From Escherichia coli phage AZ21: a stretch of DNA of 64,000 nucleotides. The position numbers were made by a program, and so were the translations under genes. The first letter of the stretch is position 1. Each line of letters starts with the position of its first letter. This document shows positions 28,882-49,218 of the stretch, one piece after another. The notes under the pieces were generated by a model. That model had not been told where the DNA came from. It made no database searches and saw nothing but the letters and a program-made list of their open reading frames with translations. Where the stretch lies: sequence record LC788708.1; one strand, written 5' to 3'.

Positions 28882-30729
28882 TTATTTAGCTCGAATATCC
28901 TGATGTTTCACTCTGCCCATCACCTCGTGCTGTTTGCCGGGGTTAAATGGACGAGCACCCGGATTTCCAAGATACCCACAAACTCGACGAGTTACTTCAA
29001 GAGTCTCAGGGTCATGATTACCACAGATAGGGCACTTAAATCCATCTTCGGATGCTATTGTTTCACCTAAGAATCCACATTTACCACAAGAATCCACTGG
29101 GGTATTAATACCGAAGTAATGAACCTTACTAGCAGCATAATTAATAACCCATTCCAGTGCATCTGGGAATCGTTTCATATCCGGTAGTTCTACATAGGAA
29201 ATGCACCCACCAGAAGCAATCGGAGTAAAGTTAGATTCATAATCAAATTTCACATTGGGAGCAACTTTACGTTCTACATCAAGGTGGTGCGAGTTAGTGT
29301 AGTATCCTTTGGACAGAATATCTTCATGCTCTGGGAAATATTCACGGTCTAGACGACAAAAACGGTCGCATAGGGATTCTGATGGTGTAGCATACAGACT
29401 ATAACCTAGTTTAGTTTCTTCCTTCTTCTGATCGACTCTATCCCGCATGTACTGCAATACACGCTGAACAAACTTGATGCAGGTCTCGGACATTGTGTCT
29501 ACATCTTTGCCAAACATGAACTGTAGCATTTCATGGCAGCCAATATACCCTAGAGATACAGAAGCACGGTTATAGAAATGATCGAATACATATTCCTCAG
29601 GCCCCAAGCGTAACCCAAAGGCTCCTGACATATAGAGGATGGGTGCAGCTTTAGCTTGAATGTATTTTAAGCGATCAACTCTCCACTCCAACGCTTTTAA
29701 TGCTGTATCCACACGTAGCTCAAGCAAATCAAAGAATAGGTCAATATTTCCTTCAGCTTCGATAGCAATTCTAGGCAAGTTTACAGAAACAACACCTAAG
29801 TTATTACGACCGGCAGTTTCACCATCTTCTGTAGCAGCTAGGAATGAACGGCAGCCCATAGAAACTTTATAGTCTCCAGTAACTTCTACAACCTTGTCAT
29901 AGCTGATATAATCTGGATACATACGTTCAGCAGTACATTTCATAGCTAACTTCTTGATGTCATAATTAACATCTCCTGGTTTCATGTTAACACCATCACG
30001 AAGTACAAATACCAGTTTCGGGAAGATAGCTGTACGTTTATTGATACCTAAACCATCCATGCGTACTTTCAGTATTGCCCTCTGTACTAGACGTGCTTCC
30101 CAAGAAGTTCCTAGACCAAAACCAAAGGTAATAAATGGACTCTGACCATTAGAGTTGAACATGGTATTGATTTCATATTCTAAACCCTGACAAGCGTCAT
30201 AGACTTCTTTTTCAGTCATCTCCGTAGCCATTACGGATGCTTTGGCCTCATCCTTAGTCCAACGTTTTGCAAACGCATGATTTTTATCATAGGATTTACG
30301 AACATAAGGGGCTAATACTTCATCAAGGCGATCTACAGAAGTACCACCATACTGATGGGAGCTAACCTGAGTGATAATCTGAGCAGTAATAGCCGCCGCA
30401 GTAGTAATAGAGTTTGGAGTGCTAATTTCAGCATTACCAACCTTCATACCATTCTTCAACATATCTTCCAGAGCTACCAGACAACAGTTAGTCATGCCTA
30501 ATGCAGCATAATCAGCATCATGGAAATGAATATCCCCAATCATATGAGCATTTCGAATCTGAATTGGCATTTCTTCTAGAATCAGATACTTACTCAATTC
30601 ACCTGCAAGCATATCCCTTTGTGTAGGGAAACGTTCTGAGGGTTTATTAGCATTATTAAACAGCAGCTCTTCATCTGCTGACCCTTCGATAATCTCTTTG
30701 CAGTTTCTAATCAATTCATCTTTGTTCAT
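28882..30729 (-). CDS. nrdD: Anaerobic ribonucleoside-triphosphate reductase (class III RNR)
   Basis: 615 aa; C-terminal zinc site CGKCGF...CPICG and glycyl-radical motif RRVCGYLG. Confidence 0.9.
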   Translation of the reverse strand: MNKDELIRNCKEIIEGSADEELLFNNANKPSERFPTQRDMLAGELSKYLILEEMPIQIRNAHMIGDIHFHDADYAALGMTNCCLVALEDMLKNGMKVGNAEISTPNSITTAAAITAQIITQVSSHQYGGTSVDRLDEVLAPYVRKSYDKNHAFAKRWTKDEAKASVMATEMTEKEVYDACQGLEYEINTMFNSNGQSPFITFGFGLGTSWEARLVQRAILKVRMDGLGINKRTAIFPKLVFVLRDGVNMKPGDVNYDIKKLAMKCTAERMYPDYISYDKVVEVTGDYKVSMGCRSFLAATEDGETAGRNNLGVVSVNLPRIAIEAEGNIDLFFDLLELRVDTALKALEWRVDRLKYIQAKAAPILYMSGAFGLRLGPEEYVFDHFYNRASVSLGYIGCHEMLQFMFGKDVDTMSETCIKFVQRVLQYMRDRVDQKKEETKLGYSLYATPSESLCDRFCRLDREYFPEHEDILSKGYYTNSHHLDVERKVAPNVKFDYESNFTPIASGGCISYVELPDMKRFPDALEWVINYAASKVHYFGINTPVDSCGKCGFLGETIASEDGFKCPICGNHDPETLEVTRRVCGYLGNPGARPFNPGKQHEVMGRVKHQDIRAK

Positions 30730-31387
30730 TAATTATTTCCTCAATAAACCTTGCTACTACTTCTGGCTCAATACTAAAAAATTCTGTAGCACCATCAAAA
30801 TCTTTATATTGACAATTATATTCCTTAAAATGTAGATGGGTTTCTCTCTCAATACGCATAGCTTTTGATCTATCTGAAAAGCTATACTCCTTAAATATTT
30901 TTAAATCATGTATGTTAGAAGAAGTTTTAATATCTCTGAGTCTATCTTTAGTTCTGCTAGACACACCTATTTTGGTCCCCACATTACTTACTAAAATATA
31001 TACGTTAGTAGGATAATTATCCTTTTCTAATAAACATATAGGACAACCAGAATTATGATTCCTAACACTATCGAGTGTAGACTCCCACCTATGATCATTC
31101 TCACAGCTAAACATGATTTTACTCTTGGAATTGATGTATTTACCTTCCATCTTTATTCCACGGGCAGCTAACGACTCATTTACTTCTTTAAGATCTAAAG
31201 TACGGCTAGCACAATAAGGGCAGCCCCTACCACCTTTTACGTTATCTACTCTAGCCTCCCAACTATGTCCATTAGAGCACTTAAATATAGCATTGGATTT
31301 AGCTGATATATACGTGCTTAGCATAACTATTCCTCTAGGAGCAAGTGCTAAGTTCACATCTTCTGTAGTTATTTTCTTTCTTACCAT
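30716..31387 (-). CDS. T5orf172 / GIY-YIG-like domain protein with tandem zinc-ribbon repeats (putative homing endonuclease)
   Basis: Two repeats FKCSNGHSWEARVDNVKGGRGCPYCA and FSCENDHRWESTLDSVRNHNSGCPICL; C-terminal NVYILVSNVGTKIGVSS...GATEFF; start overlaps nrdD by 14 nt. Confidence 0.6.
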   Translation of the reverse strand: MVRKKITTEDVNLALAPRGIVMLSTYISAKSNAIFKCSNGHSWEARVDNVKGGRGCPYCASRTLDLKEVNESLAARGIKMEGKYINSKSKIMFSCENDHRWESTLDSVRNHNSGCPICLLEKDNYPTNVYILVSNVGTKIGVSSRTKDRLRDIKTSSNIHDLKIFKEYSFSDRSKAMRIERETHLHFKEYNCQYKDFDGATEFFSIEPEVVARFIEEIINEQR

Positions 31388-31609
31388 TAAATTCTCCTTA
31401 ATTCACATATTATACATAATTCCACCCCATACGTCAACTACATTTTTCTAATACTATTTGACTTTTGATTTTTATCAATTTTTATTGACGTTATACAGCA
31501 TAATATCTTTACGTATAAATAAATGAATATCTAGTATCATATTTCTACCTTTATAAGCAAGTAAACTTTTTATTTAAAAGCAATATCATAGGTTTATTTA
31601 AAATTATAC

Positions 31610-31638
31610 TTGCTTTTTGCTGTAAACCTTGTTATAAT
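31610..31638 (+). promoter_or_regulatory. Sigma70-type early promoter (phoH operon) in the divergent intergenic region
   Basis: ttgctt-17 nt-tataat in AT-rich 320-bp region. Confidence 0.6.
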
Positions 31639-31714
31639 ATATTCGTAAGTTGATAAACAAGATCTCTTTGTTGATCCTCTGTTAGAAGCGAAGTACACTA
31701 TAGGAGTGTTATTT

Positions 31715-32467
31715 ATGGGAAAAGCACGTCAAAAAAGAGAGAACCGCAATGGTTCAAGAAAGCGTGGCAACAAATATGAGAATACCGTAATTCAGGCTGA
31801 TTTTTCTAATGATTACGCTAACCCAGTTGCTAAATCCCTAGTAGGTAAAAACCGCGAGCAAAAATCATATATCAATATGATCAAGAACAACACAGTGACT
31901 GTGGGTATCGGTGAGCCGGGTACTGGTAAAACCTTTATTCCGTCCGTTCTTGCAGCTCAGGAACTCGTAGACATTCACTCAGATATTGAGCAAGTGATCC
32001 TCGTACGTCCTAATGAACCTCTAGGCAAGTCTCTTGGTATGCTTCCTGGTGATCTAGCAGAAAAGCTAGAGCCTTGGTTGGAGCCAATAGCTGATGGTAT
32101 GAAATGGGCCATCGGCGATCATGCATATAAAGGATATGTCGAACGTCAGAAAATTAAATTTTTGGCTATCGAACATGCTCGTGGCAGAACTTTCAACAAC
32201 TCCTATGTAATTGTCGATGAAGCTCAGAATATTTCCGTTGAGGCAATGATTTGTCTCCTAACTCGTGTAGGACAAGACTGCCGTTTAATTATCTGCGGAG
32301 ATATAGCTCAGAAAGACATTAAAGGTGACTCAGGTCTAGCACTCCTTATGGAAGTCTATGAGAAATACGAAAATGCCCCATTCTCAATGATCGAATTGAT
32401 TGATAACGTTCGTTCTGTCGAGTCTAAAGCATTCTATGATATTTTTAAAGACATGGGGAAGGTGTAA
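31715..32467 (+). CDS. phoH: PhoH-like ATPase
   Basis: Walker A GEPGTGKT, Walker B VIVDEAQN; start at ATG with RBS aggag (not the upstream GTG at 31706). Confidence 0.85.
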   Translation: MGKARQKRENRNGSRKRGNKYENTVIQADFSNDYANPVAKSLVGKNREQKSYINMIKNNTVTVGIGEPGTGKTFIPSVLAAQELVDIHSDIEQVILVRPNEPLGKSLGMLPGDLAEKLEPWLEPIADGMKWAIGDHAYKGYVERQKIKFLAIEHARGRTFNNSYVIVDEAQNISVEAMICLLTRVGQDCRLIICGDIAQKDIKGDSGLALLMEVYEKYENAPFSMIELIDNVRSVESKAFYDIFKDMGKV

Positions 32468-32468
32468 T

Positions 32469-32690
32469 ATGGGAAACGTCGTTCATCTGAGCCGTAAAAC
32501 TAAAATACATCGTACTTCACTGAGTGCTGCTAATATTATTACACGTAAGGAAGGAGAAGAAAGTCCTAAGACAACCCTAGCGTGGAAAATTGTAACCTCA
32601 AATCCAAATAAACCATTCAATTATAACGAGCTGAGCACCTCCATAGATATTCTATTAAAAGAAGTAGCTAGAGCTAAAGTAATTGAATAA
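32469..32690 (+). CDS. Hypothetical protein
   Basis: 73 aa from MGNVVHL; ATG overlaps the phoH stop. Confidence 0.4.
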   Translation: MGNVVHLSRKTKIHRTSLSAANIITRKEGEESPKTTLAWKIVTSNPNKPFNYNELSTSIDILLKEVARAKVIE

Positions 32691-32832
32691 GCTAAAAAGC
32701 TAGACTGGTAATATACAGGGCCTGGGTATGAAAATACTCGGGCCTTTTCTATCAGAAAATTTTATTTGCCTAATGACCAATAATAATGTAGAATATTCCT
32801 TAAATCCTGATAACTATAAAAAGGAAAGCCAA

Positions 32833-35163
32833 ATGAGCCATCGCATTGAAAAAGTAATTAAACGTGACGGTACTGTAGAAGACTTTGCTCCTGAAAAAAT
32901 CAATGGTTGGGCAGAGTATGGTTGCAAAACAGTTGATGTAAGTTGGTCAGCCATTACTATGGCTGCTCAAAAAACTCTGCCTAAAGGGGTTGTAGATTCC
33001 GACACTCTGATGGATGCATTAATTAAAGCTGCTGAAAGTCTTATTAAAGATAATCCAGCATATGATGTGCCAGCAAAGGAATTACGTCTTGCGCAAATGC
33101 GTAAACGCCTTTATGATTCCTTCGAACCGCCTTCTCTGCGCTTCTTCCATGACCATATGGTTAGCGTAGGTGCATGGGAAGACATGAGTGCATGGATTAC
33201 CGATGAGCAATTTGAAGCTCTGAATCAGGTTATCGACCATGATCGTGACCGTCTTTTTACTAGTGGTGGGCTGAAGCAGTTCTTTGATAAGTATTCCCGC
33301 CGTAACATAGCCACTGGTGAAATTTATGAAACCCCGCAGTTTGCCTACATGGGTATGGCAATGGCGATGCTTTCTCAACCTAACTGGACAATTCTAGATG
33401 CAATCGACCTCTACAACGCAATGTCACTCCACAAAATCAACGTTCCTACGCCGCCACTGGTTGGTCTGCGCTCTAGTGACCGTGGATTTGCTAGTTGCTG
33501 TCTCGTGGATTCCACTGACACGTTGGATTCAATCGACACCGCCGAGCACATCGTCTTCAAAATGGTCGCAGCCAGAGCGGGAATCGGGTATCATCTTGAA
33601 AGCCGATCAATTGCTGATCCGGTGCGAAATGGGGCATTCCCGCATTCCGGAAAACTGCCATATTATCGACACATTGACCGCTCAGTAAAGGCCAATACTC
33701 AGCAAACTCGTGGTGGTTCTGCTACAGTGTCTTATCCATACTTCGACCCTGAAATCATTCAATTGATGCAGGTTAAGCAACAACGTGCTACAGATGAGAA
33801 TAAAATCGATAAGATGGATTATTCTCTGAGCTTTAACAATCTTTTGTTAAAACGTTATCTTAAAAACGAAGATATTACGCTAATGTCATACTTCTATGCT
33901 CCAGAAGTTCATGAAGCGTTTTATAGTGATGACGAGGCTAAATTTGAAGAAATCTACGTGGCAGCGGAGAAACGTGTGGCATCTCTTACAAAGATCGACC
34001 ACGAAGGAAAAACAGTTCCTGCAGCTCCTAAAGTCTCTGCAAAAGAAATCCTAGATACTTGGCTACGTATCCGAATGGAAACAGGACGTATGTATGCTCA
34101 TCACATCGGGGAATCTAATCGTCACGGTAACTTCCTTGATCCGATCCGTATGACAAACCTTTGTGTTGAAATTACTCAGCCTACACGCCCGTTCCATCAT
34201 ATCACAGAGCTGTATAAGACAAAAGAGCAGCTTGATCAAATGAAGCCGGAGGATATTGGTGAAGTATCTCTGTGTAACTTAGGCGGTGTTGTACTTGGAC
34301 GCATGGAATCTCTGGCTGAGTGGGAAAAAACTTGCTACATCCTTCTGAAATTCGTTGATACAATTATTGAGATTCAGGATTATCCGTTCCCAACTATGGA
34401 ATATACGGCTAAGAAACGTCGTAATGTTGGTATTGGCCTGATGAACGCAGCAGGTGCAATGGCAGCAGAAGGTCTGGCTTACGAAGGTATTGAAGCCCGT
34501 AACTGGATCCACCGTGAGGCTGAAAAACTGTCTTACTTCCTGCATAAAGCCTCTGTACGCCTAGCTAAAGAACAAGGTGCATGTGAGTGGTTTGATCGTA
34601 CTAAACCATCTAAAGGAATTCTGGTAATCGACACGTACAAGAAAACTGTTGATGAACTAGTATCCGTAGGCCTAGAAATGGATTGGGAGTCTCTGCGGGC
34701 AGATATTCTGAAATATGGTATGCGTAACTCTGTTCTAACTGCTCAGATGCCGGGAGAAAGTTCTTCTGTTCTGTTAGGTGTTACTAACTCTATTGAACCA
34801 CCTCGTAAGATTGTATCTATCAAGGGTAGTGCAGTAAATAAAGTAATTGCAATTGCTCCGGGTGCAACCGATTGGGAGACGTTAATGAGCTATAAACTGG
34901 CTTATGATGTAGATCGTATCGAGTGGATCAAGTGGGTAGCAACTATGCAGAAATTCTTCAGTCAGTCTATCAGTACGAATATGTACTATGACTACACCAA
35001 GTTTGAGAATGAAATCATTCCTGGCCCAGTAGTAGTTCGTGATTTCATGACTGCTGTTAAGTATGGGTGGAAAACTTTCTATTATGCTAACTTCAACACC
35101 GCAAATGGTGGAGGTGCTGGAGAAGAAGCAGCCGGTTGTGCATTCGGTGGTTGTACTATTTAA
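32833..35163 (+). CDS. nrdA: Ribonucleotide reductase large subunit (class Ia)
   Basis: ATP-cone VIKRDGTVEDF at N-terminus, catalytic core and C-terminal Cys pair; start at MSHRIEK with RBS aaaggaaag. Confidence 0.9.
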   Translation: MSHRIEKVIKRDGTVEDFAPEKINGWAEYGCKTVDVSWSAITMAAQKTLPKGVVDSDTLMDALIKAAESLIKDNPAYDVPAKELRLAQMRKRLYDSFEPPSLRFFHDHMVSVGAWEDMSAWITDEQFEALNQVIDHDRDRLFTSGGLKQFFDKYSRRNIATGEIYETPQFAYMGMAMAMLSQPNWTILDAIDLYNAMSLHKINVPTPPLVGLRSSDRGFASCCLVDSTDTLDSIDTAEHIVFKMVAARAGIGYHLESRSIADPVRNGAFPHSGKLPYYRHIDRSVKANTQQTRGGSATVSYPYFDPEIIQLMQVKQQRATDENKIDKMDYSLSFNNLLLKRYLKNEDITLMSYFYAPEVHEAFYSDDEAKFEEIYVAAEKRVASLTKIDHEGKTVPAAPKVSAKEILDTWLRIRMETGRMYAHHIGESNRHGNFLDPIRMTNLCVEITQPTRPFHHITELYKTKEQLDQMKPEDIGEVSLCNLGGVVLGRMESLAEWEKTCYILLKFVDTIIEIQDYPFPTMEYTAKKRRNVGIGLMNAAGAMAAEGLAYEGIEARNWIHREAEKLSYFLHKASVRLAKEQGACEWFDRTKPSKGILVIDTYKKTVDELVSVGLEMDWESLRADILKYGMRNSVLTAQMPGESSSVLLGVTNSIEPPRKIVSIKGSAVNKVIAIAPGATDWETLMSYKLAYDVDRIEWIKWVATMQKFFSQSISTNMYYDYTKFENEIIPGPVVVRDFMTAVKYGWKTFYYANFNTANGGGAGEEAAGCAFGGCTI

Positions 35164-35170
35164 TAAAAAC

Positions 35171-35199
35171 AAGGAGATCTTCGGGTCTCCTTTTTCTTT
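35171..35199 (+). terminator. Rho-independent terminator after nrdA
   Basis: aaggagatcttcgggtctcctt followed by tttcttt. Confidence 0.75.
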
Positions 35200-35209
35200 G
35201 AAATTTTAC

Positions 35210-35239
35210 TTGCTAATCGCTACCAGATTTGCTATAATA
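35210..35239 (+). promoter_or_regulatory. Sigma70-type promoter for nrdB
   Basis: ttgcta-18 nt-tataat. Confidence 0.6.
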
Positions 35240-35269
35240 TTCCTGAAATAGTGAGAAAGAGGAAAATCA

Positions 35270-36415
35270 ATGACTACTTTACTAAACCTGAATTGGGATC
35301 ATACTAACGCTGACCTTTTCCTGGGAGATTCTCTCGGTATCGCAGATTATGTACGTGTAGCACATCCAGAACTAGAACGTCTGGCACTTCTGCAACGCTC
35401 TCAATTTTGGACTGAAACTGAAATCAGTCTGGAAGCAGATAAGAAACAATGGCCCAATCTCCCTCGTGAAATTCAGGAAATTACACTCCTGAACTTAGCA
35501 TGGCAAACTCAAACTGATTCCTTTATCAGTCGTGCCCCTGAAGCAGCTATTATGCCACTTGTAAGTCGTCCAGAATTGGAAGGTATGCTCAAACAGTGGA
35601 GCTATTTTGAAGACCTGCATAGTCGTGCTTATAGCAATATTATTCGTAATGTGCTGACTGATCCAGCAGAATTTATTGATTCTGTAACCAAAAACCAAGA
35701 AGCATTCGCGCGCATCGCTGATTCTGTTGAACTATTCGATGAACTGTACCAGTTAGGTCAGTATTTCATCGCAGTACGCGATCATCGTGGAGACAATACA
35801 TATCCAGAAACTGAGTTCCCTGAAGTTAAACGTGAAACTCAGGCTAAACTATTGGACGCTTACTTTGCGATCTATGGTCTGGAAGCAATGCAGTTTTACG
35901 CATCCTTTGCATGTACCTTTGCATTAGCAGAGAACGATATTCTGCAAGGTATTGCTAAAAATCTGCAATTAATCGCTAAAGATGAAGCTCTGCACACTCA
36001 GATGTCCAAAGCAATCATCCAGATTATGTTTCAGCAATTTGACAAAGATCTGGTAGATGAGGCAGTAGCTAAAGCACCAGCACAGCTCCTGAAAACTCTG
36101 AAAACTGAAATTGAATGGGGTCATTTCATTTTCAAAGGTCGTAGTCTGATTGGCTTGAATGCAGAACTTCTAGAAGAATATCTGTACTTTGTGGGGCGCA
36201 ATGCATTTATGCACATCGGTGTAGAATGGCCTAGTCACTTACCAGTAATCACCAAAAACCCTATTCCGTGGATCATGAACTGGTTGGATACTACTTCTCT
36301 ACAGCCTGCTCCGCAAGAAATCCAGATTGGTGCAGCTTACCGTGTAGGTCAGGTAACTGAGACCTCTACTGATACTCTGAAAGATCTGGGTAATGAATTT
36401 GGAGATTTCTTATGA
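35270..36415 (+). CDS. nrdB: Ribonucleotide reductase small subunit (class Ia)
   Basis: 381 aa; diiron ligand pattern and tyrosyl-radical region. Confidence 0.88.
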   Translation: MTTLLNLNWDHTNADLFLGDSLGIADYVRVAHPELERLALLQRSQFWTETEISLEADKKQWPNLPREIQEITLLNLAWQTQTDSFISRAPEAAIMPLVSRPELEGMLKQWSYFEDLHSRAYSNIIRNVLTDPAEFIDSVTKNQEAFARIADSVELFDELYQLGQYFIAVRDHRGDNTYPETEFPEVKRETQAKLLDAYFAIYGLEAMQFYASFACTFALAENDILQGIAKNLQLIAKDEALHTQMSKAIIQIMFQQFDKDLVDEAVAKAPAQLLKTLKTEIEWGHFIFKGRSLIGLNAELLEEYLYFVGRNAFMHIGVEWPSHLPVITKNPIPWIMNWLDTTSLQPAPQEIQIGAAYRVGQVTETSTDTLKDLGNEFGDFL

Positions 36416-36945
36416 TTACAGCAATGTATGCAGTTGGGCCGAATGGGGAGTTCGGCCTCCGCGGTAAACTTCCATGGGGTTCCTTCAAAGAAGAACTAGA
36501 TGCTTTCTATTCTCAACTGGACGTATTAAATCCAGATAACATCATCATTGGTGCGGGTACTTATTTAGCTCTTCCATACGCCGTTAGAGAACGTATGATT
36601 AGGGCTTCTGACCTATTTATTCGTGTTGATCGTCCACTGCCAGACGATATTACGCATGATATTTACACTCCAATTTCTAAGATTGGGGATACATTACCTA
36701 CGTTTCTGAAAGATCAGCAGACAGTGGTTTTAGGTGGCGCAACATTATTGTACGAAATGTATATTCATGGACATATTGAGAGTGCTTTTGTATCCACAAT
36801 CTTTAGTAGTCAAAAACTAGAGGCAGATGTACATCTGGATAATATGATTCTAGATTACAACTATGAATCTACTCGTTTAGTTTACGCAACTGGCGCAAAC
36901 AGTGATAACAGCCTGCGATTTGTACAGGAATTGGTTACTTATTAA
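36412..36945 (+). CDS. Dihydrofolate reductase
   Basis: 177 aa; N-terminal [18 protein letters not shown]; sits directly upstream of thymidylate synthase. Confidence 0.7.
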
Positions 36946-37799
36946 TGGATCAGTATATCGAAGTTGGAAAACGCATTCTATCAGATGGTCAGTGGGTAAC
37001 GAATCCTAGAACAGGGGTTCGTTGCCTCACTATTATTGATGCAGACTTTACTTTTAACGTAGGTGCAGGGGAATTTCCCCTTATTACTACTCGTAAGGCG
37101 TTTGCAAAACAAGCAATAATGGAAATGATTGGGTATCTACGTGGATATGACTCAGCAGCACAATTCCGTGCTATTGGTGTTAACACATGGAATGCTAATG
37201 CAAATGAAAACTCAGCTTGGCTAGACAATCCATACCGTAAAGGTGAGGATGATATGGGACGAGTCTATGGTGTTCAAGGACGTCAGTGGACTAATTCCGA
37301 TGGTCTTATGTTTGACCAACTAGCCAAGATTTATCATAATCTGAAAAGGGGCATTGATGATCGTGGGGAAATTCTAACCTTCTGGAATCCGGGAGAGTTC
37401 TCAAAGGGTTGCTTACGTCCATGTATGCACACTCATCAGTTCTCTATTTTGGGAGATACATTATACCTGAACTCTTTCCAGAGATCTAATGACTTCCTGT
37501 TAGGCCAAGTATTTAACATGGTTCAGTGCTATACGCTTCTAGCATTAATGGCTCAGATTACAGGCCTTAAACCAGGAATTGCACGCCAGAAGATTATCAA
37601 TCTTCATATCTATGAGGATCAGTATAATGTTTTGATGGAGCATAAGCAATTCGATCGTAAACCTTTTGCACCTCCTACTCTAGAAATTAATCCAAATATC
37701 CGAACTCTGGAGGATGTATTGACCTGGGTAAATAAGGATGATTTTACTGTTCGTGGTTACGAACACCACCCTGCTATTGCATACCCCTTTACGGTATAA
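36945..37799 (+). CDS. thyA: Thymidylate synthase
   Basis: 284 aa; catalytic Cys region [10 protein letters not shown] and [12 protein letters not shown] (ThyA-like DxxLGxPFN). Confidence 0.8.
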
Positions 37800-37802
37800 T
37801 AT

Positions 37803-38156
37803 ATGTTGACAATACTATTATTTGTTATATTCTTCCTGAAACATTTTATGGCTGATTATCCCCTCCAAACTCCATACATGTTAAGGAAGACCCACAAAAT
37901 AGGGTGGAAACTTCCATTACTAACCCATTCTCTAGTACATGCTGGACTAACCTTTATAATTCTTACTATGTTCACATCACTAGGAATGGCTATAACTTTA
38001 GCTATAATGGAATTAATTCTACACTTTATCATAGATTACTGGAAAGCACAATGCTGTAAATACGATATAAGTGATTCCAGGTTTTGGATAGCTTTAGGAT
38101 TTGATCAGTTACTCCATTACTTAACCTATGCTCTCATAATTTTAATTATAATTTAG
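37803..38156 (+). CDS. Hypothetical membrane protein
   Basis: 117 aa, several hydrophobic helices. Confidence 0.45.
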   Translation: MLTILLFVIFFLKHFMADYPLQTPYMLRKTHKIGWKLPLLTHSLVHAGLTFIILTMFTSLGMAITLAIMELILHFIIDYWKAQCCKYDISDSRFWIALGFDQLLHYLTYALIILIII

Positions 38157-38161
38157 CTCAA

Positions 38162-38187
38162 ATAGCCCTTCGGGGCTATTATATTTA
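38162..38187 (+). terminator. Rho-independent terminator
   Basis: atagccc-ttcg-gggctat followed by tatattt. Confidence 0.65.
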
Positions 38188-38195
38188 AATTTCAT

Positions 38196-38224
38196 TTGCT
38201 TATTTAGTGAAATTTAAATATAAT
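38196..38224 (+). promoter_or_regulatory. Sigma70-type early promoter
   Basis: ttgctt-17 nt-tataat-atattttataaattggagg. Confidence 0.65.
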
Positions 38225-38250
38225 ATATTTTATAAATTGGAGGTACACAT

Positions 38251-38508
38251 ATGGGACTCTTTAGAAAGAAAGTTTATTTAACAGAAGAGCAAGAACACAA
38301 ACTTCTTACTCTATCAGAATACTATCATTTACCATATGATTATTTTGTAGATAGAGCAATAGAGGAATTCTTAGATAGAGAATTAGAGGCTATAAAACCT
38401 AAGCCTCCTGAGCCGTCTTTAGCATCAAAGGGTCACCAAAGAGAATCCCCAAGAGTTCCGCCAATGCCCCCAATTCCACCAAAAACTAGAGTTGTAACAG
38501 AGTTGTAA
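38251..38508 (+). CDS. Hypothetical protein, possible ribbon-helix-helix fold with Pro-rich tail
   Basis: 85 aa; KKVYLTEEQEHKLLTLSE N-terminus; C-terminal PPMPPIPP. Confidence 0.4.
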   Translation: MGLFRKKVYLTEEQEHKLLTLSEYYHLPYDYFVDRAIEEFLDRELEAIKPKPPEPSLASKGHQRESPRVPPMPPIPPKTRVVTEL

Positions 38509-38524
38509 TAGAAGGTAAAAAATA

Positions 38525-39004
38525 ATGTCGGTTTTCCACATTTACACAGATGGTGCTTGTAAGTCTAACCCAGGTCCAGGTGCTTGGGGTTTTATTGTCT
38601 ATAATGATAACGACGATCGTTTAGGTTCTAAATCTGGTTATAATCCTAAAACTACAAATAATGAGATGGAACTCACAGCTATTGTAGAAGCTCTACGTTG
38701 GTCTGTTAAAAAAGATAATAGACCAATTGCTATCTATACTGACTCTGCTTATTGCAAAAATGGCATGGAAAGCTGGATGTTTTCTTGGCAAAGGAAAGGC
38801 TGGAAGAAAGCAGATGGTGAAGTTCCTCTTAATCTAGAACTTTGGCAGGAAGCATTTAAATTAACACAGCAGTATATCAACTTTCATAATACTAATCCTA
38901 CCTTTATTAAGGTTAAAGGACATTCTGGTATTAGTGGTAATGAAGCTGTAGACGCCTTATGTAATACAGTTATTACTGAAGCTGAAATGGCTGAGATGTT
39001 ATAA
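38525..39004 (+). CDS. rnh: Ribonuclease H
   Basis: 159 aa; HIYTDGACKSNPGPGAWG start, TNNEMEL, YTDS, C-terminal H...D motifs of RNase HI. Confidence 0.8.
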   Translation: MSVFHIYTDGACKSNPGPGAWGFIVYNDNDDRLGSKSGYNPKTTNNEMELTAIVEALRWSVKKDNRPIAIYTDSAYCKNGMESWMFSWQRKGWKKADGEVPLNLELWQEAFKLTQQYINFHNTNPTFIKVKGHSGISGNEAVDALCNTVITEAEMAEML

Positions 39005-43474: not shown

Positions 43475-43645
43475 ATGAAATCAGTTGTAATTATTGGTGT
43501 TAACACTCGCGGTATTCGTACTACGAAAACTGTTAAAACTTCTAACGTTGCTGAAATCACTACGAACCCTAAAAAGTTTGATTTCGCCAAAGTCTCAGCA
43601 GTTATGACAGAACAATCTTTTAACCAAGCATTGGGGATGAAATAA
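43475..43645 (+). CDS. Hypothetical small protein (56 aa)
   Basis: ATG 10 nt after RBS gagaggaag; stop overlaps next start (TAATG); below the ORF-track size cutoff. Confidence 0.45.
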   Translation: MKSVVIIGVNTRGIRTTKTVKTSNVAEITTNPKKFDFAKVSAVMTEQSFNQALGMK

Positions 43646-44079
43646 TGGGTGAAAATATTCTAATGACCCTTCGTGGACTGCTTAGTCTAGCACGTACCCA
43701 CGGTGATAAGGAGAGGGCACTTAATCTTCAGACCATGATTGGTGATCTGCAACGTATTGATAAAGACATTGTTACTCGAACCGAGTTCGTAGCCTATCTG
43801 AAAGCTCAGATTAAGGCTCTAGAAAATGCAAAACAACGCGCTATTAAAGTTGGTACGGAAGTTCCTACTGATGTAGACTATGAGCAACTGCTTTATTCCA
43901 TGCTGCAAGAGTATCAGCCAAGTCAACTGACTGAAGTTCAGATTCGTGAGTATTTTGCAGAACTGGTTAAATTAAACCCAGGTATTACCAAAGCTCTATT
44001 AATGAAAACTATTAAGGCAGAATTTCCTGGACGTTATGACGGTAAAACAACTGCTTTGATTGCTAGTGAATTTTTCTAA
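43645..44079 (+). CDS. Hypothetical protein
   Basis: 144-aa ORF translationally coupled to the preceding small ORF. Confidence 0.5.
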   Translation: MGENILMTLRGLLSLARTHGDKERALNLQTMIGDLQRIDKDIVTRTEFVAYLKAQIKALENAKQRAIKVGTEVPTDVDYEQLLYSMLQEYQPSQLTEVQIREYFAELVKLNPGITKALLMKTIKAEFPGRYDGKTTALIASEFF

Positions 44080-44087
44080 AAATTCAC

Positions 44088-44116
44088 TTGCTAAATGCTT
44101 ATAAATTCTATATAAT
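44088..44116 (+). promoter_or_regulatory. Sigma70-type promoter heading the tRNA island
   Basis: ttgcta-17 nt-tataat-atattcataaatt followed by inverted repeat aattagatg...catctaatt. Confidence 0.65.
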
Positions 44117-44193
44117 ATATTCATAAATTAGATGATAATTAGGCATCTAATTTATAAATAGTGGGGTGTGGAAATCACTTATGTAGTAACACT

Positions 44194-44265
44194 GCCGTCC
44201 TAGTATAATTGGTATTATCAAGCCGTAACTGGTGGAAGATGTAGGTTCGAATCCTACGGTCGGTA
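44194..44265 (+). tRNA. tRNA-like gene with canonical T-arm but irregular acceptor/anticodon arms (possible degenerate tRNA)
   Basis: T-arm gtagg-ttcgaat-cctac and D-loop aattgg are present; acceptor gccgtcc/ggtcggt has one U-U mismatch; best anticodon stem has only 4 bp (loop gccgtaa); no encoded CCA. Confidence 0.4.
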
Positions 44266-44767
44266 AGAACTGGATAACTGATGCTTTTAACGTAAAAGCT
44301 TCCGAGGTTAGTTGCGCACTGCCTAAACCACGCGGTAGTTGGTTCCAGACTAACCAACCAGTCTGCTGAATAGTTTTATTACGATTTAACTATGTCCAGG
44401 CTAAAGAAGAACTTTAGAAGGTATTCTAGGATAGTGAAGTTCTTTCTCCACATCGGAGTAGTTTTTCAAGCTATCCACAAAGTGGGAAATGCTGACATGA
44501 GAGATGTCACTAATGGTGCACAATAGCACAGGTAATTCGCGATAATTCCTGTTGAGTAGCAGCAAAAGGCGGGAAGTCATGACCCCAAGCCTAACCGAGT
44601 CCTCAATATACCGCAGGGCATAACCACTAAGTCACCCTGACTTAAACTGGAAAATAATAGACGTTACTGTATTTTGTCTTGAAATACTTAATGAGTGAGA
44701 CTTATGACTCTCCCGGTATCGTCTGTATTTTTAAGAGTTTTTACGAGAGTTCTTAAAAATACTTAAA

Positions 44768-44842
44768 CGGGGTGTAGTCTAAGGGAGAGGCAGGAGTCTT
44801 CTAAATTCCTTTATGCAGGTTCGAATCCTGTCACCTCGGCCA
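44768..44842 (+). tRNA. tRNA-Arg (anticodon UCU)
   Basis: Acceptor cggggtg/cacctcg, D-stem gtct/aggc, anticodon stem ggagt/attcc with loop cTTCTAa, T-arm gcagg-ttcgaat-cctgt, discriminator g, encoded CCA. Confidence 0.8.
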
Positions 44843-44876
44843 ATTTTATTAACTGTAACTAAAACAAAGGAAACAT

Positions 44877-45824
44877 ATGTTTAATACTAAAAATATGAAA
44901 GAATTGACTTCTGAGCAGAAAGTAATTCGTACTATTAAACGTTGGGGTATTGGTGCTGTAGTTGGTTTAGCAGGTTTAATCCTAGCTTTTAATTCGTATA
45001 CCATTGTTTCTGATGGTACGGTTAAAACCCAAACATTCCTGGGTAAAGTAGACCCTAATCCAGTATTACCTGGTTTCCATCTTGTAAACCCGTTTGCATC
45101 TTTCGATACTTTTAGTACGAAAGATATTTCTATGAAACTGGATAAACTTCAGGTTCCTAGCCAGGATAAGTTTAAGTCTACAGTTGACATTACCGTTATG
45201 TTGCAGTTTGATGGTGCTAAAGCTCCTATTAACCGTGTTAACGCAGGTACTCAGGATCAAGCTCTGAACAAGTACGTTGAAGAGAAGATGCTGTCTACGA
45301 TTCGTGAGTTTGGTAAGTCTGTACCAAAAGCACAAGATCTGTTCGACGCTAAGATTCAGGCTCAACTGCAAACCGCTATTCAGCAAGAAGTAGAAGAGTA
45401 TGCGCGTCCTTATGGCTACACCGTTAAGCAAGTATTCCTTCAGGATATTACTCTGCCACCGGTAATCATGGAACAGGTACAAAACACCAAAGTTCGTGAA
45501 GAACAAGTTAACGCTGCAAAAGCTGAACTAGCTCGTGTTGAACAAGAAGCACAGCAGAAAGTTAAGCAAGCTGAGGCTGATCGTTCTGCTCGTGAAAATA
45601 TGGCAGTAGCTAACGAACGTGACGCAGATGCTAAACTGTATGCGGCTAAGAAAGAAGCTGAAGCTAACACCGCTCTGCAGCGTACCATCACTCCAGAGAT
45701 GATTCGCTGGAAACAGCTGGAAGTTGATATGAAACGCGCTGAAAAATATCAGGGTGGCGTTCCTCAGACTGTTGTAGGTACTGGTTATGATGGCCAGATG
45801 ATTATGGATATGCGTAATAAGTAA
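44877..45824 (+). CDS. SPFH/band-7 (prohibitin/HflC-like) membrane protein
   Basis: 315 aa; N-terminal TM helix IGAVVGLAGLILAF, SPFH core, C-terminal coiled-coil. Confidence 0.65.
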   Translation: MFNTKNMKELTSEQKVIRTIKRWGIGAVVGLAGLILAFNSYTIVSDGTVKTQTFLGKVDPNPVLPGFHLVNPFASFDTFSTKDISMKLDKLQVPSQDKFKSTVDITVMLQFDGAKAPINRVNAGTQDQALNKYVEEKMLSTIREFGKSVPKAQDLFDAKIQAQLQTAIQQEVEEYARPYGYTVKQVFLQDITLPPVIMEQVQNTKVREEQVNAAKAELARVEQEAQQKVKQAEADRSARENMAVANERDADAKLYAAKKEAEANTALQRTITPEMIRWKQLEVDMKRAEKYQGGVPQTVVGTGYDGQMIMDMRNK

Positions 45825-48847: not shown

Positions 48848-48935
48848 GGGCGTTTATTCCGTAAGTGGTAGCGGAGGGGATTGTAAATCCCTGGTCATTG
48901 CGACTCGAGTGGTTCGACTCCATTAACGCCCACCA
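48848..48935 (+). tRNA. tRNA-Tyr (anticodon GUA), class II
   Basis: Acceptor gggcgtt/aacgccc (7 bp), D-stem tccg/cgga, anticodon stem gggga/tccct with loop tTGTAaa, long variable arm, T-arm agtgg-ttcgact-ccatt, encoded CCA. Confidence 0.75.
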
Positions 48936-48952: not shown

Positions 48953-49144
48953 ATGTATATTGATCGGATAATTCAAGAAGCTGCAAATAGGGGTATTATA
49001 CAGTTGGGTTCACCCGCTGATATAAATAAAGATCTAATATTAGAAAGCCTCACATTTGGTACAGCTAACTTTGGTCGCGATAGTAATCGTCGATATAGCT
49101 TGAAGTTATCTGCACTATCTTTTATCAAGTATAACAAATTATAG
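48953..49144 (+). CDS. Hypothetical protein
   Basis: 63-aa ORF between two tRNAs; stop overlaps the next tRNA 5' end. Confidence 0.4.
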   Translation: MYIDRIIQEAANRGIIQLGSPADINKDLILESLTFGTANFGRDSNRRYSLKLSALSFIKYNKL

Positions 49145-49218
49145 TTAGTTGGCAGAGTGGTTATGCACCTCCTTCATACGGAGCGACTACAGTGGTTCAA
49201 CTCCACTACTAACTACCA
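49143..49218 (+). tRNA. tRNA with CAU anticodon (second copy; Met/fMet or Ile2)
   Basis: Acceptor agttagt/actaact (7 bp), anticodon stem ctcc/ggag with loop tTCATac, T-arm agtgg-ttcaact-ccact, encoded CCA. Confidence 0.7.

What the first reader, a model, noticed from the sequence alone, without database searches (positions are those of the whole stretch)
44130..44870. tRNA island with one canonical tRNA-Arg(UCU), one irregular tRNA-like element, and about 500 bp of hairpin-rich ORF-free spacer
Between the promoter at 44088 and tRNA-Arg (44768..44842) there is a tRNA-like sequence (44194..44265) with a perfect T-arm and D-loop but mismatched acceptor and anticodon stems, followed by about 500 nt with several strong inverted repeats (for example cagact-aaccaacc-agtctg near 44345-44365, and ttttaaga...tcttaaaa near 44730-44760) and no convincing ORF. 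This looks like decaying or non-canonical tRNA genes or processed spacer RNAs.
Basis: seen in the sequence. Interest (0 to 1): 0.4.

Follow-up and report, generated by a model that had tools for sequence, protein, structure and literature searches.

The report
T5 rnaX: large structured phage RNA
The "spacer" between the odd tRNA-like element and tRNA-Arg is one large, folded, non-coding RNA gene shared by T5-like phages; GenBank has listed it in T5 for about 20 years as "RNAX, stable RNA with unknown functions", but I found no description of it as a structured RNA family.

Summary
The window is a T5-like coliphage, 100% identical here to E. coli phage AZ23. tRNA-Arg(UCU) lies at 44768-44842. 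An irregular tRNA-like element lies at 44194-44265. About 800 bp have no conserved ORF.

The interpretation of decaying tRNAs does not hold. The stretch from the early promoter (44088-44116) to tRNA-Arg is the ortholog of T5 rnaX, annotated "stable RNA with unknown functions". It is a roughly 640-nt structured RNA. Two covariance models covering 44479-44762 give 94-97% paired cells and 22 plus 12 pairs with compensatory changes, against at most 7 in slid controls.

The tRNA-like element is a maintained domain. Its T and D stems covary. Its anticodon arm differs by lineage: a regular tRNA-Pro(UGG) arm in Erwinia phage KEY, a UCA loop, a hexaloop (here), or a long arm. In EPS7, Proteus and Providencia phages other helices replace the whole domain.

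In this phage the variable 5' domain (up to 478 nt in relatives) is reduced to its closing hairpin. Rfam 15 matches nothing except tRNA. Motif scans find the RNA only in T5-like phages. It is deleted in the viable T5 st0 mutant.

Function is unknown. The closest analogues are GOLLD and ROOL, but it is not a member of either family.

The parts
44088..44116 (+). T5-type early sigma-70 promoter (TTGCTA-17-TATAAT). The transcription start is inferred at about 44123-44130.
   Evidence: Consensus scan gives 10 of 12. Annotated as a promoter in AKFV33 and as 'promoter P 16-17' in T5. The same promoter precedes the RNA in EPS7, IME260, KEY, KKP and Stubb.
44123..44155 (+). P1 hairpin (12 bp, 9-nt loop). 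It is the retained closing stem AUAAAUUAGAxx/xxUCUAAUUUAU of a 5' domain that is deleted here.
   Evidence: In relatives the same stem encloses 133-478 nt. T5 and this phage keep only the capped stem, with different caps and compensatory distal pairs: GAUG/CAUC here, GAGA/UCUC in T5.
44156..44193 (+). Conserved junction AAAUAGUGGGGUGUGGAAAUCACUUAUGUAGUAACACU.
   Evidence: Near-invariant across Tequintavirus, Epseptimavirus, Sugarlandvirus, KEY, KKP, Proteus and Providencia phages. The exact-motif scan of IMG/VR finds only T5-like genomes.
44194..44265 (+). tRNA-like domain. It has a canonical T arm and a GG D-loop. The acceptor stem is weak (G1.U72, U5.U68). The anticodon arm is replaced by a 3-4 bp stem with a GUAACU hexaloop. 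No CCA is encoded.
   Evidence: Rfam tRNA 35.5 bits, not called by ARAGORN. Over 16 variants the T stem is 98.8% paired with 3 covarying pairs and the D stem covaries. The canonical anticodon register is only 59.5% paired, against 78% for the hexaloop register. It is homologous to tRNA-Pro(UGG) of phage KEY. It is annotated as a tRNA pseudogene in T5 AY587007 and as tRNA-OTHER elsewhere.
44265..44278 (+). Conserved linker AAGAACUGGAUAAC.
   Evidence: Conserved even where the tRNA-like domain is replaced, as in EPS7, Stubb and PSTCR5.
44283..44358 (+). Middle domain, 5' part: hairpin M-a (44283-44299), helix M-x (44302-44305 with 44332-44335), hairpin M-b (44307-44323), AAACCAC motif, hairpin M-c (44338-44358).
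   Evidence: 92.6% of cells are paired, with 3 compensatory pairs against at most 1 in slid controls. The M-a stem has a different sequence in each genus: GCUUUU, GCUUC, GCUUAU, GGUUC, GGUUA.
44360..44478 (+). Middle domain, 3' part. 44360-44402 holds Tequintavirus-specific predicted hairpins. 44403-44476 is a module shared with Klebsiella and Enterobacter T5-like phages (UAGAA/UUCUA, CUCC/GGAG, GGAUAG/CUAUCC).
   Evidence: The 44403-44475 module is 85% identical in Sugarlandvirus phages. UAGAA/UUCUA changes to UAGGC/GCCUA in KKP and IME260. The rest rests on MFE prediction only.
44479..44627 (+). 3' core, part 1: a multi-helix junction. P0 is GUGG/CCAC (invariant, untestable). Pa is 44491-44510. 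Pb is 44517-44521 with 44556-44561. Pc is 44528-44552 with the CGNGAUAA loop. Pd is 44568-44591. Pf is 44599-44619.
   Evidence: Model R1 finds 44 copies (24 distinct). 93.8% of cells are paired and 22 of 33 pairs show compensatory changes, against at most 7 when slid; 0 of 500 shuffles reach this. Types not in the seed were recovered: KKP 48.5 bits, L018/26175V 42 bits, IME260 26.5 bits.
44575..44584 (+). Invariant loop AGUCAUGACC, containing the 8-nt palindrome GUCAUGAC and capping helix Pd.
   Evidence: Invariant in all 24 distinct sequences while the flanking helix covaries. TCATGA occurs nowhere else in the RNA (sequence).
44620..44724 (+). 3' core, part 2: AUAACCAC, invariant hairpin Pe AAGUCA-CCC-UGACUU (44629-44643), long-range helix Pg (44659-44663 with 44720-44724) enclosing Ph1 (44669-44687), UUAAU, and Ph2 (44697-44712).
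   Evidence: Model R2 was seeded from window-type sequences only, and it aligns four other sequence types. 97.2% of cells are paired and 12 pairs show compensatory changes, against at most 3 when slid.
44725..44762 (+). 17-bp AU-rich terminal hairpin marking the 3' end of the RNA. It is not followed by a U-run.
   Evidence: Conserved in all types with 5 compensatory pairs. It always abuts either tRNA-Arg or the ribosome-binding site of an inserted ORF. The terminator scan does not call it.
44768..44842 (+). tRNA-Arg(UCU) with encoded CCA. RNase P cleavage at its 5' end would define the 3' end of the RNA.
   Evidence: ARAGORN and Rfam, 49.3 bits. T5 annotates rnaX as ending exactly at the tRNA-Arg 5' end.

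Best explanation
Window 44123-44767 (+ strand) is the ortholog of bacteriophage T5 rnaX. It is a large structured non-coding RNA of T5-like phages (Demerecviridae), about 640 nt here and 0.7-1.3 kb in relatives.

It is transcribed from a strong early promoter as one unit with tRNA-Arg(UCU) and the SPFH/band-7 gene.

Its architecture, 5' to 3', is:
- a closing stem P1 that in relatives encloses a variable 5' domain, deleted in this phage;
- a conserved junction;
- an embedded tRNA-like domain;
- a modular middle domain;
- a conserved 3' core of about 285 nt, built around a multi-helix junction with invariant single-stranded motifs (GUGGGAAA, CGNGAUAA, the palindromic loop AGUCAUGACC, AUAACCAC);
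- a long terminal hairpin.

Inferred mechanism: the host tRNA-maturation machinery cuts the primary transcript. RNase P would cut at the 5' sides of the tRNA-like domain and of tRNA-Arg, and 3' tRNA-processing nucleases after the tRNA-like domain. This would release a stable folded RNA that acts in trans as an accessory factor not needed for growth in the laboratory. Its role would be linked to the phage tRNA island, as proposed for GOLLD and ROOL RNAs. The palindromic loop may allow self-association.

Shown: identity with rnaX, non-coding status, conserved secondary structure, strand, modular evolution, restriction to T5-like phages, and absence from a viable T5 deletion mutant.

Inferred: processing sites, stability, trans action and oligomerisation.

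The confidence of 0.55 is for the whole statement. By part: identity as a structured rnaX-family RNA about 0.95; RNase P-type maturation about 0.6; stand-alone trans function about 0.5; oligomerisation about 0.2.
For: - Identity: the region is 100% identical to AZ23, 99.5% to AKFV33 and 91-98% to T5. T5 AY543070 annotates promoter P16-17, then misc_RNA rnaX 'stable RNA with unknown functions', then tRNA-Arg.
- Non-coding: no conserved ORF.
- Structure, 3' core: R1 gives 93.8% paired and 22 of 33 compensatory pairs; R2 gives 97.2% paired and 12 compensatory pairs. Slid controls reach at most 7 and at most 3, and 0 of 500 shuffles match.
- Structure, other parts: middle-domain helices and tRNA-like T and D stems.
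- P1: the stem is retained while the enclosed domain ranges from 0 to 478 nt.
- Strand: 82 G.U cells against 21 A.C cells in paired columns.
- Transcription unit: promoter upstream, no terminator called before the one after the SPFH gene.
- Distribution: an ORF-free locus of 0.7-1.3 kb at the same place in Epseptimavirus, Sugarlandvirus, KEY, KKP, Novosibvirus and Priunavirus. Exact-motif scans of IMG/VR, metagenomes and GTDB genomes return only T5-like phages plus chance hits. No match in 5,426 E. coli genomes.
- Dispensability: the T5 st0 deletion starts inside the upstream gene and removes the locus.
- Analogy: GOLLD and ROOL are phage RNAs near tRNA islands. GOLLD has a variable 5' region, a conserved 3' region, and sometimes tRNAs in its linker.
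Against: - No expression or processing data were available here. 'Stable RNA' is a GenBank note whose source paper I could not read.
- The RNA always lies directly upstream of tRNA-Arg or of an ORF's ribosome-binding site, so a purely cis-acting leader role is not excluded.
- The 3' core is not detectable in Proteus or Providencia phages, even with filters off. The 'family' is therefore really a shared 5' half plus a lineage-restricted 3' core.
- The alignments used for pair counts were fitted to the models. The sequences are related and mosaic (24 and 19 distinct rows).
- P0 and several motifs are invariant and so cannot be tested.
- Oligomerisation rests only on a palindrome.
Confidence: 0.55

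Rival explanations
1. Cis-acting structured leader. The RNA has no function of its own. It serves as a folding and processing scaffold that sets the yield or timing of tRNA-Arg and of the downstream mRNA (SPFH or inserted ORFs), for example by recruiting RNase P or RNase E, or by protecting the 5' end.
For: It is co-transcribed with tRNA-Arg and the SPFH gene. The terminal hairpin always abuts tRNA-Arg or an ORF's ribosome-binding site within about 5-25 nt. The 5'-terminal hairpin P1 would protect the transcript.
Against: A leader of 640-1270 nt with at least 15 covarying helices and invariant loops is far more than known leaders need. The downstream partner differs between lineages while the RNA is kept. 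T5 annotators recorded it as a stable RNA.
Confidence: 0.2
2. tRNA-mimic decoy or anti-defence RNA. The tRNA-like domain, displayed on a large scaffold, would bind or titrate host tRNA-targeting nucleases or other tRNA-binding factors. Its anticodon arm would diversify in an arms race.
For: The anticodon arm is the hypervariable part, while the elbow and acceptor are conserved: UGG loop, UCA loop, GUAACU hexaloop, or 12-bp extension. T5 tRNAs are documented counter-defences against PARIS (PMC11464382) and retron Eco7 (bioRxiv 10.1101/2023.03.15.532788). The locus is accessory.
Against: The tRNA-like domain is replaced by non-tRNA helices in EPS7, Stubb and PSTCR5 although the RNA persists. No defence phenotype maps to this locus; the T5Mos deletion 30661-38625 does not include it. 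The rest of the RNA is left unexplained.
Confidence: 0.12
3. Decaying tRNA genes. The tRNA-like element and the spacer would be relics of former tRNA genes drifting neutrally.
For: The element lies in a tRNA island. It is homologous to an apparently regular tRNA-Pro(UGG) in phage KEY. It is flagged as a pseudogene in AY587007.
Against: The spacer holds no further tRNA-like hit at E<=10. There are compensatory changes throughout and invariant motifs across genera. None of this is expected under neutral decay.
Confidence: 0.03
4. DNA-level element (replication, nicking or recombination site), or small protein genes, rather than an RNA.
For: T5 has site-specific nicks and deletion hot spots in this region. 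ORFs of 44-60 aa exist on both strands, and some annotators call them hypothetical proteins.
Against: The ORFs are broken in homologs and show no codon-position bias. Paired columns tolerate G.U on the + strand four times more often than A.C, which points to a + strand RNA. The annotated nick lies downstream of the SPFH gene, not here.
Confidence: 0.03

Closest known systems
Bacteriophage T5 rnaX ('RNAX, stable RNA with unknown functions', AY543070 40848..41566) and the tRNA pseudogene annotated in AY587007 (41285..41356)
   Same: It has the same position (promoter P16-17, then the RNA, then tRNA-Arg, then the band-7 gene), the same strand, and 91-98% nucleotide identity. The tRNA-like element is the same one.
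   Different: T5 carries an extra 88-nt hairpin insertion in the 3' core and an A5-U68 pair that completes the acceptor stem. The window copy has U5.U68 and a different cap on P1. The GenBank records give no structure or function.
GOLLD RNA (Rfam RF01998)
   Same: It is a phage-encoded, very large (over 600 nt), many-helix RNA located at tRNA islands. It has a variable 5' region, a conserved 3' region, and tRNAs sometimes in the linker. Its function is unknown.
   Different: There is no match to the Rfam model even at E<=10 on the 0.65-kb and 1.3-kb versions. The host range differs (T5-like phages of Enterobacterales). Cage formation is untested.
ROOL RNA
   Same: It is a large ornate RNA of phages and prophages, often near tRNA genes, abundant but non-essential, with no known protein partner.
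   Different: There is no match to any Rfam family other than tRNA. The motifs are unrelated, and ROOL has no embedded tRNA-like domain as a regular feature.
T4 stable RNAs C and D (species 1 and 2) in the T4 tRNA cluster (own knowledge, not tested here)
   Same: They are non-tRNA stable RNAs of unknown function, co-transcribed with phage tRNAs, matured by the tRNA-processing machinery, and dispensable.
   Different: The T4 species are small (about 120-140 nt). No sequence comparison was made here.
tRNA-like elements used as RNase P processing signals within longer RNAs, for example MALAT1/mascRNA (own knowledge)
   Same: A tRNA-like fold with an intact elbow but no decoding function sits inside a long non-coding transcript and could dictate cleavage sites.
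   Different: Those examples are eukaryotic and the tRNA-like element is 3'-terminal. Here it is internal, and cleavage is only inferred.

Membership tests
Canonical tRNA (element 44194-44265) | Score at or above the Rfam RF00005 gathering threshold | tested here: met
   35.5 bits against 29, but the anticodon arm is treated as a local insert.
Canonical tRNA (element 44194-44265) | Detected by a dedicated tRNA finder | tested here: not met
   ARAGORN does not call it in the window. It calls the homologs inconsistently: 'Ser(ACT)', 'SeC(TCA)', 'Pro(TGG)'. tRNAscan-SE was not available.
Canonical tRNA (element 44194-44265) | 7-bp acceptor stem | tested here: not met
   Here the stem has U5.U68 and G1.U72. 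Position 5-68 is unpaired in 12 of 16 variants and position 1-72 is non-standard in 6 of 16.
Canonical tRNA (element 44194-44265) | 5-bp anticodon stem with a 7-nt loop and U33 | tested here: not met
   Only 3 of 5 pairs form and position 33 is G. The canonical register is 59.5% paired across variants, against 78% for a 4-bp stem with a hexaloop.
Canonical tRNA (element 44194-44265) | T arm with GTTCGAATC and D-loop GG (the elbow) | tested here: met
   The T stem is 98.8% paired with 3 covarying pairs. GG and the T-loop are invariant.
Canonical tRNA (element 44194-44265) | Aminoacylation and use in translation | not testable with these tools
   No CCA is encoded (sequence). tRNA sequencing or charging assays are needed.
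T5 rnaX (RNAX) | Sequence homology over the whole RNA | tested here: met
   90.9% over 44080-44652 and 98.4% over 44630-44880 against AY543070.
T5 rnaX (RNAX) | Synteny: T5.081 homolog, then early promoter, then the RNA, then tRNA-Arg(UCU), then the band-7 gene | tested here: met
   Band_7 scores E=2.4e-19. The upstream protein gives only a weak YqeY hit, 18 bits against a cutoff of 27.
T5 rnaX (RNAX) | Accumulates as a stable RNA in infected cells | not testable with these tools
   This rests only on the GenBank note. The source paper is not held.
GOLLD / ROOL (large ornate phage RNAs) | Match to the family covariance model | tested here: not met
   cmscan of the window locus and of the 1.3-kb IME260 version at E<=10 returns tRNA only.
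GOLLD / ROOL (large ornate phage RNAs) | Phage-encoded, adjacent to a tRNA island, over 500 nt, with many covariation-supported helices | tested here: met
   This is a resemblance in kind, not membership.
GOLLD / ROOL (large ornate phage RNAs) | Homo-oligomeric assembly (nanocage) | not testable with these tools
   The only indication is an invariant palindromic loop, GUCAUGAC.
tmRNA / group I intron / RNase P RNA | Family model or tmRNA finder hit | tested here: not met
   ARAGORN reports no tmRNA. No Rfam hit at E<=10.

The most novel reading that the evidence does not exclude
rnaX would be a further, independent class of giant ornate phage RNA, the first in a genetically tractable model pair (T5 and E. 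coli). After excision by tRNA-processing enzymes it would self-associate through the invariant palindromic loop GUCAUGAC, possibly exchanging with the identical words of the AAGUCA/UGACUU hairpin. The resulting RNA particle would display a tRNA-like elbow and act on the tRNA or translation machinery, or on host tRNA-directed defences.
Probability: 0.15. Interest if true: 0.85.

Novelty: new variant of a known kind. Interest (0 to 1): 0.55.

Why it matters
The locus itself is not new. T5's GenBank record has carried it as rnaX for about 20 years, and the tRNA-like element as a pseudogene.

What I did not find described, in Rfam 15 or in the searchable literature, is the following:
- It is a covariation-supported RNA of 0.65-1.3 kb with many helices, shared across T5-like phage genera.
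- It has a domain layout like that of GOLLD: a variable 5' region, a tRNA in the linker, and a conserved 3' core.
- Its tRNA-like domain has a rapidly changing anticodon arm.

The function of large phage RNAs next to tRNA islands (GOLLD, ROOL) is an open question, and those RNAs sit in hosts that are awkward to work with. T5 and E. coli would make the question directly testable, through deletion, trans-complementation, RNase P mutants and cryo-EM.

There is also a practical point. Many T5-like genome records annotate spurious 'hypothetical proteins', 'tRNA-OTHER', 'tRNA-Sec' or 'tRNA-Ser' inside this RNA.

Tried and rejected
- Rfam at gathering thresholds on the window and on 10 related loci, and at E<=10 on the locus and on the 1.3-kb Klebsiella version: only tRNA hits. 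This rules out membership in GOLLD, ROOL, group I introns, RNase P RNA, tmRNA, 6S and the rest.
- By eye, some words resembled group I R/S elements (ACUAAUGG, GAAGAUAU.GUC) and the 11-nt GAAA receptor (UAAUGG/CCUAAC). I dropped both: there is no model hit, and the CC of CCUAAC is already used in the covarying helix Pd.
- Host origin: no blastn match in 5,426 complete E. coli genomes.
- Wider distribution: exact core-motif scans of IMG/VR, metagenomes and GTDB genomes, and a junction-motif scan, found only T5-like phages. The non-T5 hits were coding-sequence coincidences.
- One search was wasted on a mistyped pattern.
- 3' core in Proteus and Providencia phages: none found with R1, filters off. 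GGGAUAAGUCAUGACACCC in Stubb may be coincidental.
- Small ORFs: rejected.
- RNAalifold on a raw MAFFT alignment was poor because the variable hairpins were misaligned. I replaced it with hand-defined helices and covariance-model alignment.
- Literature: searches for RNAX, T5 stable RNA and T5-like structured RNA found nothing relevant. Wang et al. 2005 is not held.
- A third covariance model for the 5' half was not built. Conservation of the 5' domain in other genera rests on motif inspection.
Full report
**Source and context.** The window is a T5-like coliphage. The 801 bases 44080-44880 are 100% identical to E. coli phage AZ23 and 99.5% to vB_EcoS_AKFV33. They match 560 phage records, almost all Tequintavirus or Epseptimavirus and their relatives. 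Upstream lies the homolog of T5.081 (43645-44079), which gives only a weak YqeY-like hit of 18 bits against a cutoff of 27. Downstream lies an SPFH/band-7 gene (44877-45824).

**Checking the observation.**
- ARAGORN finds tRNA-Arg(TCT) at 44768-44842 and nothing else in the finding's range.
- The Rfam tRNA model also hits 44194-44265 at 35.5 bits (gathering score 29). It skips the anticodon arm and flags mismatches in the acceptor and D stems.
- A sigma-70 promoter (TTGCTA-17-TATAAT, 44088-44116) is present. It is annotated as a T5 early promoter in AKFV33 and T5.
- The longest ORFs between 44080 and 44876 are 44-60 aa. In T5, SE24, L007 and KKP_3711 their frames are broken by indels and stops, and substitutions show no codon-position bias.
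- The 650-nt transcript folds better than all shuffles, with z = -3.2.

**What the locus is.**
- The T5 reference record AY543070 annotates exactly this interval. It runs from promoter 'P 16-17' to the first base of tRNA-Arg and is labelled misc_RNA rnaX, 'RNAX, stable RNA with unknown functions', 719 nt.
- The second T5 record, AY587007, flags the tRNA-like element as a tRNA pseudogene.
- Other depositors call the element tRNA-OTHER, tRNA-Sec or tRNA-Ser, or place hypothetical proteins over it.
- The viable T5 st0 deletion mutant (AY692264) has its deletion junction inside the T5.081 homolog and lacks the locus (hit H160). The RNA is therefore dispensable in the laboratory.

**Comparative anatomy.** An ORF-free stretch of 0.7-1.3 kb follows a T5-type promoter at the head of the tRNA island in all of these phages:
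- Epseptimavirus (EPS7, about 1.09 kb; SE24);
- Sugarlandvirus (IME260, about 1.26 kb);
- Erwinia phage KEY and Enterobacter phage KKP_3711;
- Proteus phage Stubb and Providencia phages PSTCR5 and PR1.

The RNA is modular:

1. *P1 stem.* The stem AUAAAUUAGAG/CUCUAAUUUAU sits at the 5' end. In relatives it encloses a domain of 133-478 nt carrying conserved words (CAGCGRGCYGAYUACGCUG, GAAUAGARUCNGUGRG, UAAACUCU). In this window and in T5 itself only the capped stem remains. The caps differ and the distal pairs are compensatory. Keeping a helix while its contents are deleted is typical of a functional RNA fold.
2. *Junction.* A near-invariant junction spans 44156-44193.
3. *tRNA-like domain.* It spans 44194-44265.
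4. *Linker and middle domain.* The conserved linker AAGAAYNGGAUAAC is followed by a middle domain of hairpins. Their stems differ in sequence between genera but keep pairing: 92.6% of cells are paired, with 3 compensatory pairs against at most 1 when slid.
5. *3' core.* A core of about 285 nt spans 44479-44762.

**Structure of the 3' core.** I defined the helices by hand and built two covariance models.
- R1 covers 44479-44627 with 33 pairs. It recovered 44 copies, 24 of them distinct, including types absent from the seed: KKP 48.5 bits, L018/26175V 42 bits, IME260 26.5 bits. 93.8% of cells are paired. 22 of 33 pairs carry changes on both sides, against 1-7 when the 3' partner is slid. 0 of 500 shuffles reach the observed values.
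- R2 covers 44620-44762 with 38 pairs and was seeded from window-type sequences only. It aligned four other sequence types. 97.2% of cells are paired, with 12 compensatory pairs against 0-3 when slid.
- Caveats: the alignments are fitted to the models, the sequences are related, and sub-domains are exchanged mosaically between phages.
- Strand: paired columns contain 82 G.U cells against 21 A.C cells, which points to a + strand RNA.
- Invariant unpaired words are GUGGGA.A.G, the CGNGAUAA loop, AGUCAUGACC and AUAACCAC. GUGG and CCAC could close the first junction, but being invariant this cannot be tested.
- AGUCAUGACC is a loop on the covarying helix Pd and contains the 8-nt palindrome GUCAUGAC. 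It has no other complement in the RNA apart from the two strands of the invariant hairpin AAGUCA-CCY-UGACUU.

**The tRNA-like domain.** Seventeen variants were collected and 16 of them aligned.
- The T stem is 98.8% paired with three covarying pairs. The D stem covaries. GG and the T-loop are invariant.
- The acceptor stem is weak: U5.U68 in 12 of 16 variants (A-U in T5), and G1.U72 or G1.A72.
- The canonical anticodon register is paired in only 59.5% of cells.
- In this phage the arm is a 3-bp stem with a GUAACU hexaloop. KKP_3711 keeps it through a C-G to G-C exchange.
- In SE24 and 26175V it reads as a UCA anticodon loop. In KEY it is a regular tRNA-Pro(UGG) arm (Rfam 50 bits). In Sugarlandvirus it is a roughly 12-bp extended arm that itself covaries.
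- In EPS7, Stubb and PSTCR5 the whole domain is replaced by other helices between the same junction and linker.
- This is a maintained structural domain with a fast-changing anticodon arm, not a decaying gene.

- The ttttaaga/tcttaaaa repeat is the 17-bp terminal hairpin, 44725-44762.
- The cagact/agtctg repeat (44346-44365) occurs only in Tequintavirus-type sequences. It is mutually exclusive with GUUGGUU/AACCAAC (44338-44358), which is paired in every sequence and changes G-C to A-U in KKP.

**Distribution.**
- Rfam 15 has no family for this RNA.
- Exact-motif scans of IMG/VR, public metagenomes and one genome per GTDB species return only T5-like phages plus coincidental coding matches.
- E. 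coli genomes have no match.
- The 3' core is not found in the Proteus or Providencia phages. These share only the 5' half.

**Mechanism.**
- *Shown:* the region is a + strand, non-coding, highly structured, modular RNA gene. It is co-oriented with tRNA-Arg and the SPFH gene and lies between a promoter and the terminator that follows the SPFH gene.
- *Inferred from general knowledge of bacterial tRNA maturation:* RNase P cleaves 5' of the tRNA-like domain and of tRNA-Arg, and 3' processing trims after the tRNA-like domain. This would release a folded RNA of about 0.5 kb (44266-44767), or about 0.64 kb if the tRNA-like domain is not excised. This agrees with the T5 annotators placing the rnaX 3' end at the tRNA-Arg 5' end.
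- *Likelihoods:* I judge a trans-acting accessory RNA, in the manner proposed for GOLLD and ROOL, more likely than a mere leader. My reasons are its size, its invariant loops, and its persistence when the downstream neighbour changes. No experiment available here separates the two.
- Self-association through the palindromic loop, and a decoy role for the tRNA-like domain, are speculative.

**Comparison with known systems.**
- The window copy is a member of the T5 rnaX locus, by homology and by synteny.
- It works like GOLLD and ROOL in genomic ecology and layout. Those are phage RNAs at tRNA islands. GOLLD has a variable 5' region, a conserved 3' region, and tRNAs in its linker (bioRxiv 10.1101/2024.12.08.627333). 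It fails their covariance models, so it is not a member.
- The element at 44194-44265 fails three defining tRNA features: the acceptor stem, the anticodon arm, and detection by a tRNA finder. It meets two: the elbow and the Rfam score.

**Verdict.** The locus is already annotated in GenBank, but as a class of structured RNA it appears undescribed. I rate it moderately interesting. It is not a surprise that T5's tRNA region encodes extra stable RNAs. It would, however, offer a large GOLLD-like RNA in a model phage.

Noticed in passing
window 44768-44842: The 'canonical' tRNA-Arg(UCU) has C1-G72 and a G3.U70 wobble pair in its acceptor stem. G3.U70 is the textbook alanyl-tRNA synthetase identity element. 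The same 49.3-bit tRNA occurs in T5 and Epseptimavirus loci, whereas KEY and IME260 carry a different 69-70-bit tRNA-Arg(UCU).
   Followed up: no
L006 (T5) 1883-1946; L108 about 7385-7450; equivalent to an insertion after window about 44652: T5 and one metagenome contig carry an 88-nt insertion in the 3' core. It is a long hairpin flanked by a 23-nt direct repeat, AGTCACCTTGAC(T/A)TAAACTGGAA, which resembles a duplication or insertion scar.
   Followed up: partly
L106 564-842; L111 9045-9319: Sub-domains of the RNA are exchanged mosaically. L106 joins a Tequintavirus-type first half of the core to a Sugarlandvirus-type second half. L111 joins a window-type first half to an Epseptimavirus-type second half.
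   Followed up: partly
L040 1973-2482; L007 about 1880-2390; L045 2624-3100: In Epseptimavirus and KKP_3711 a conserved ORF of about 160-170 aa (MNLGTTCIFDH..., Cys-containing, annotated hypothetical) is inserted between the terminal hairpin of the RNA and tRNA-Arg.
   Followed up: no
window 48848-48935 and 49143-49218: tRNA-Tyr(GTA) and a second tRNA-Met(CAT) are called by ARAGORN but do not reach the Rfam tRNA gathering score. Other non-standard tRNAs may therefore lie in this island.
   Followed up: no
window 43645-44079: The upstream gene (T5.081 homolog) is only 59% identical to T5's protein. It gives a sub-threshold YqeY-like (GatB-tail, tRNA-binding type) hit and is annotated 'tRNA amidotransferase' in some records. 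It precedes the RNA in most genera, with a small ORF in between in the Proteus and Providencia phages, and is absent before the RNA in IME260.
   Followed up: partly
L044 about 4049-4062; L116 about 1490-1505: In Proteus phage Stubb and Providencia phage PSTCR5 the enlarged 5' domain contains its own T-arm-like sequence (GGGTTCAACTCCC, GAGGTTCGATTCCTC). The usual tRNA-like position holds a plain hairpin instead.
   Followed up: no
public records MG065692, OR848805, OR847704, PP892525: Records named 'Campylobacter phage C13' and 'Listeria phage LM 4-14-1 / 4-11-1' match this T5-type RNA at 81-96%. PP892525 carries a Felixounavirus taxonomy line but is T5-like. These are probably mislabelled or contaminated entries.
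   Followed up: no
AY692264 30287-33086 (L004): The T5 st0 record annotates six further misc_RNAs in the tRNA island: RNAIII, RNAI, RNA1, RNA2H, RNAIV and rna2. These lie outside the region studied, and their counterparts in this window were not examined.
   Followed up: no
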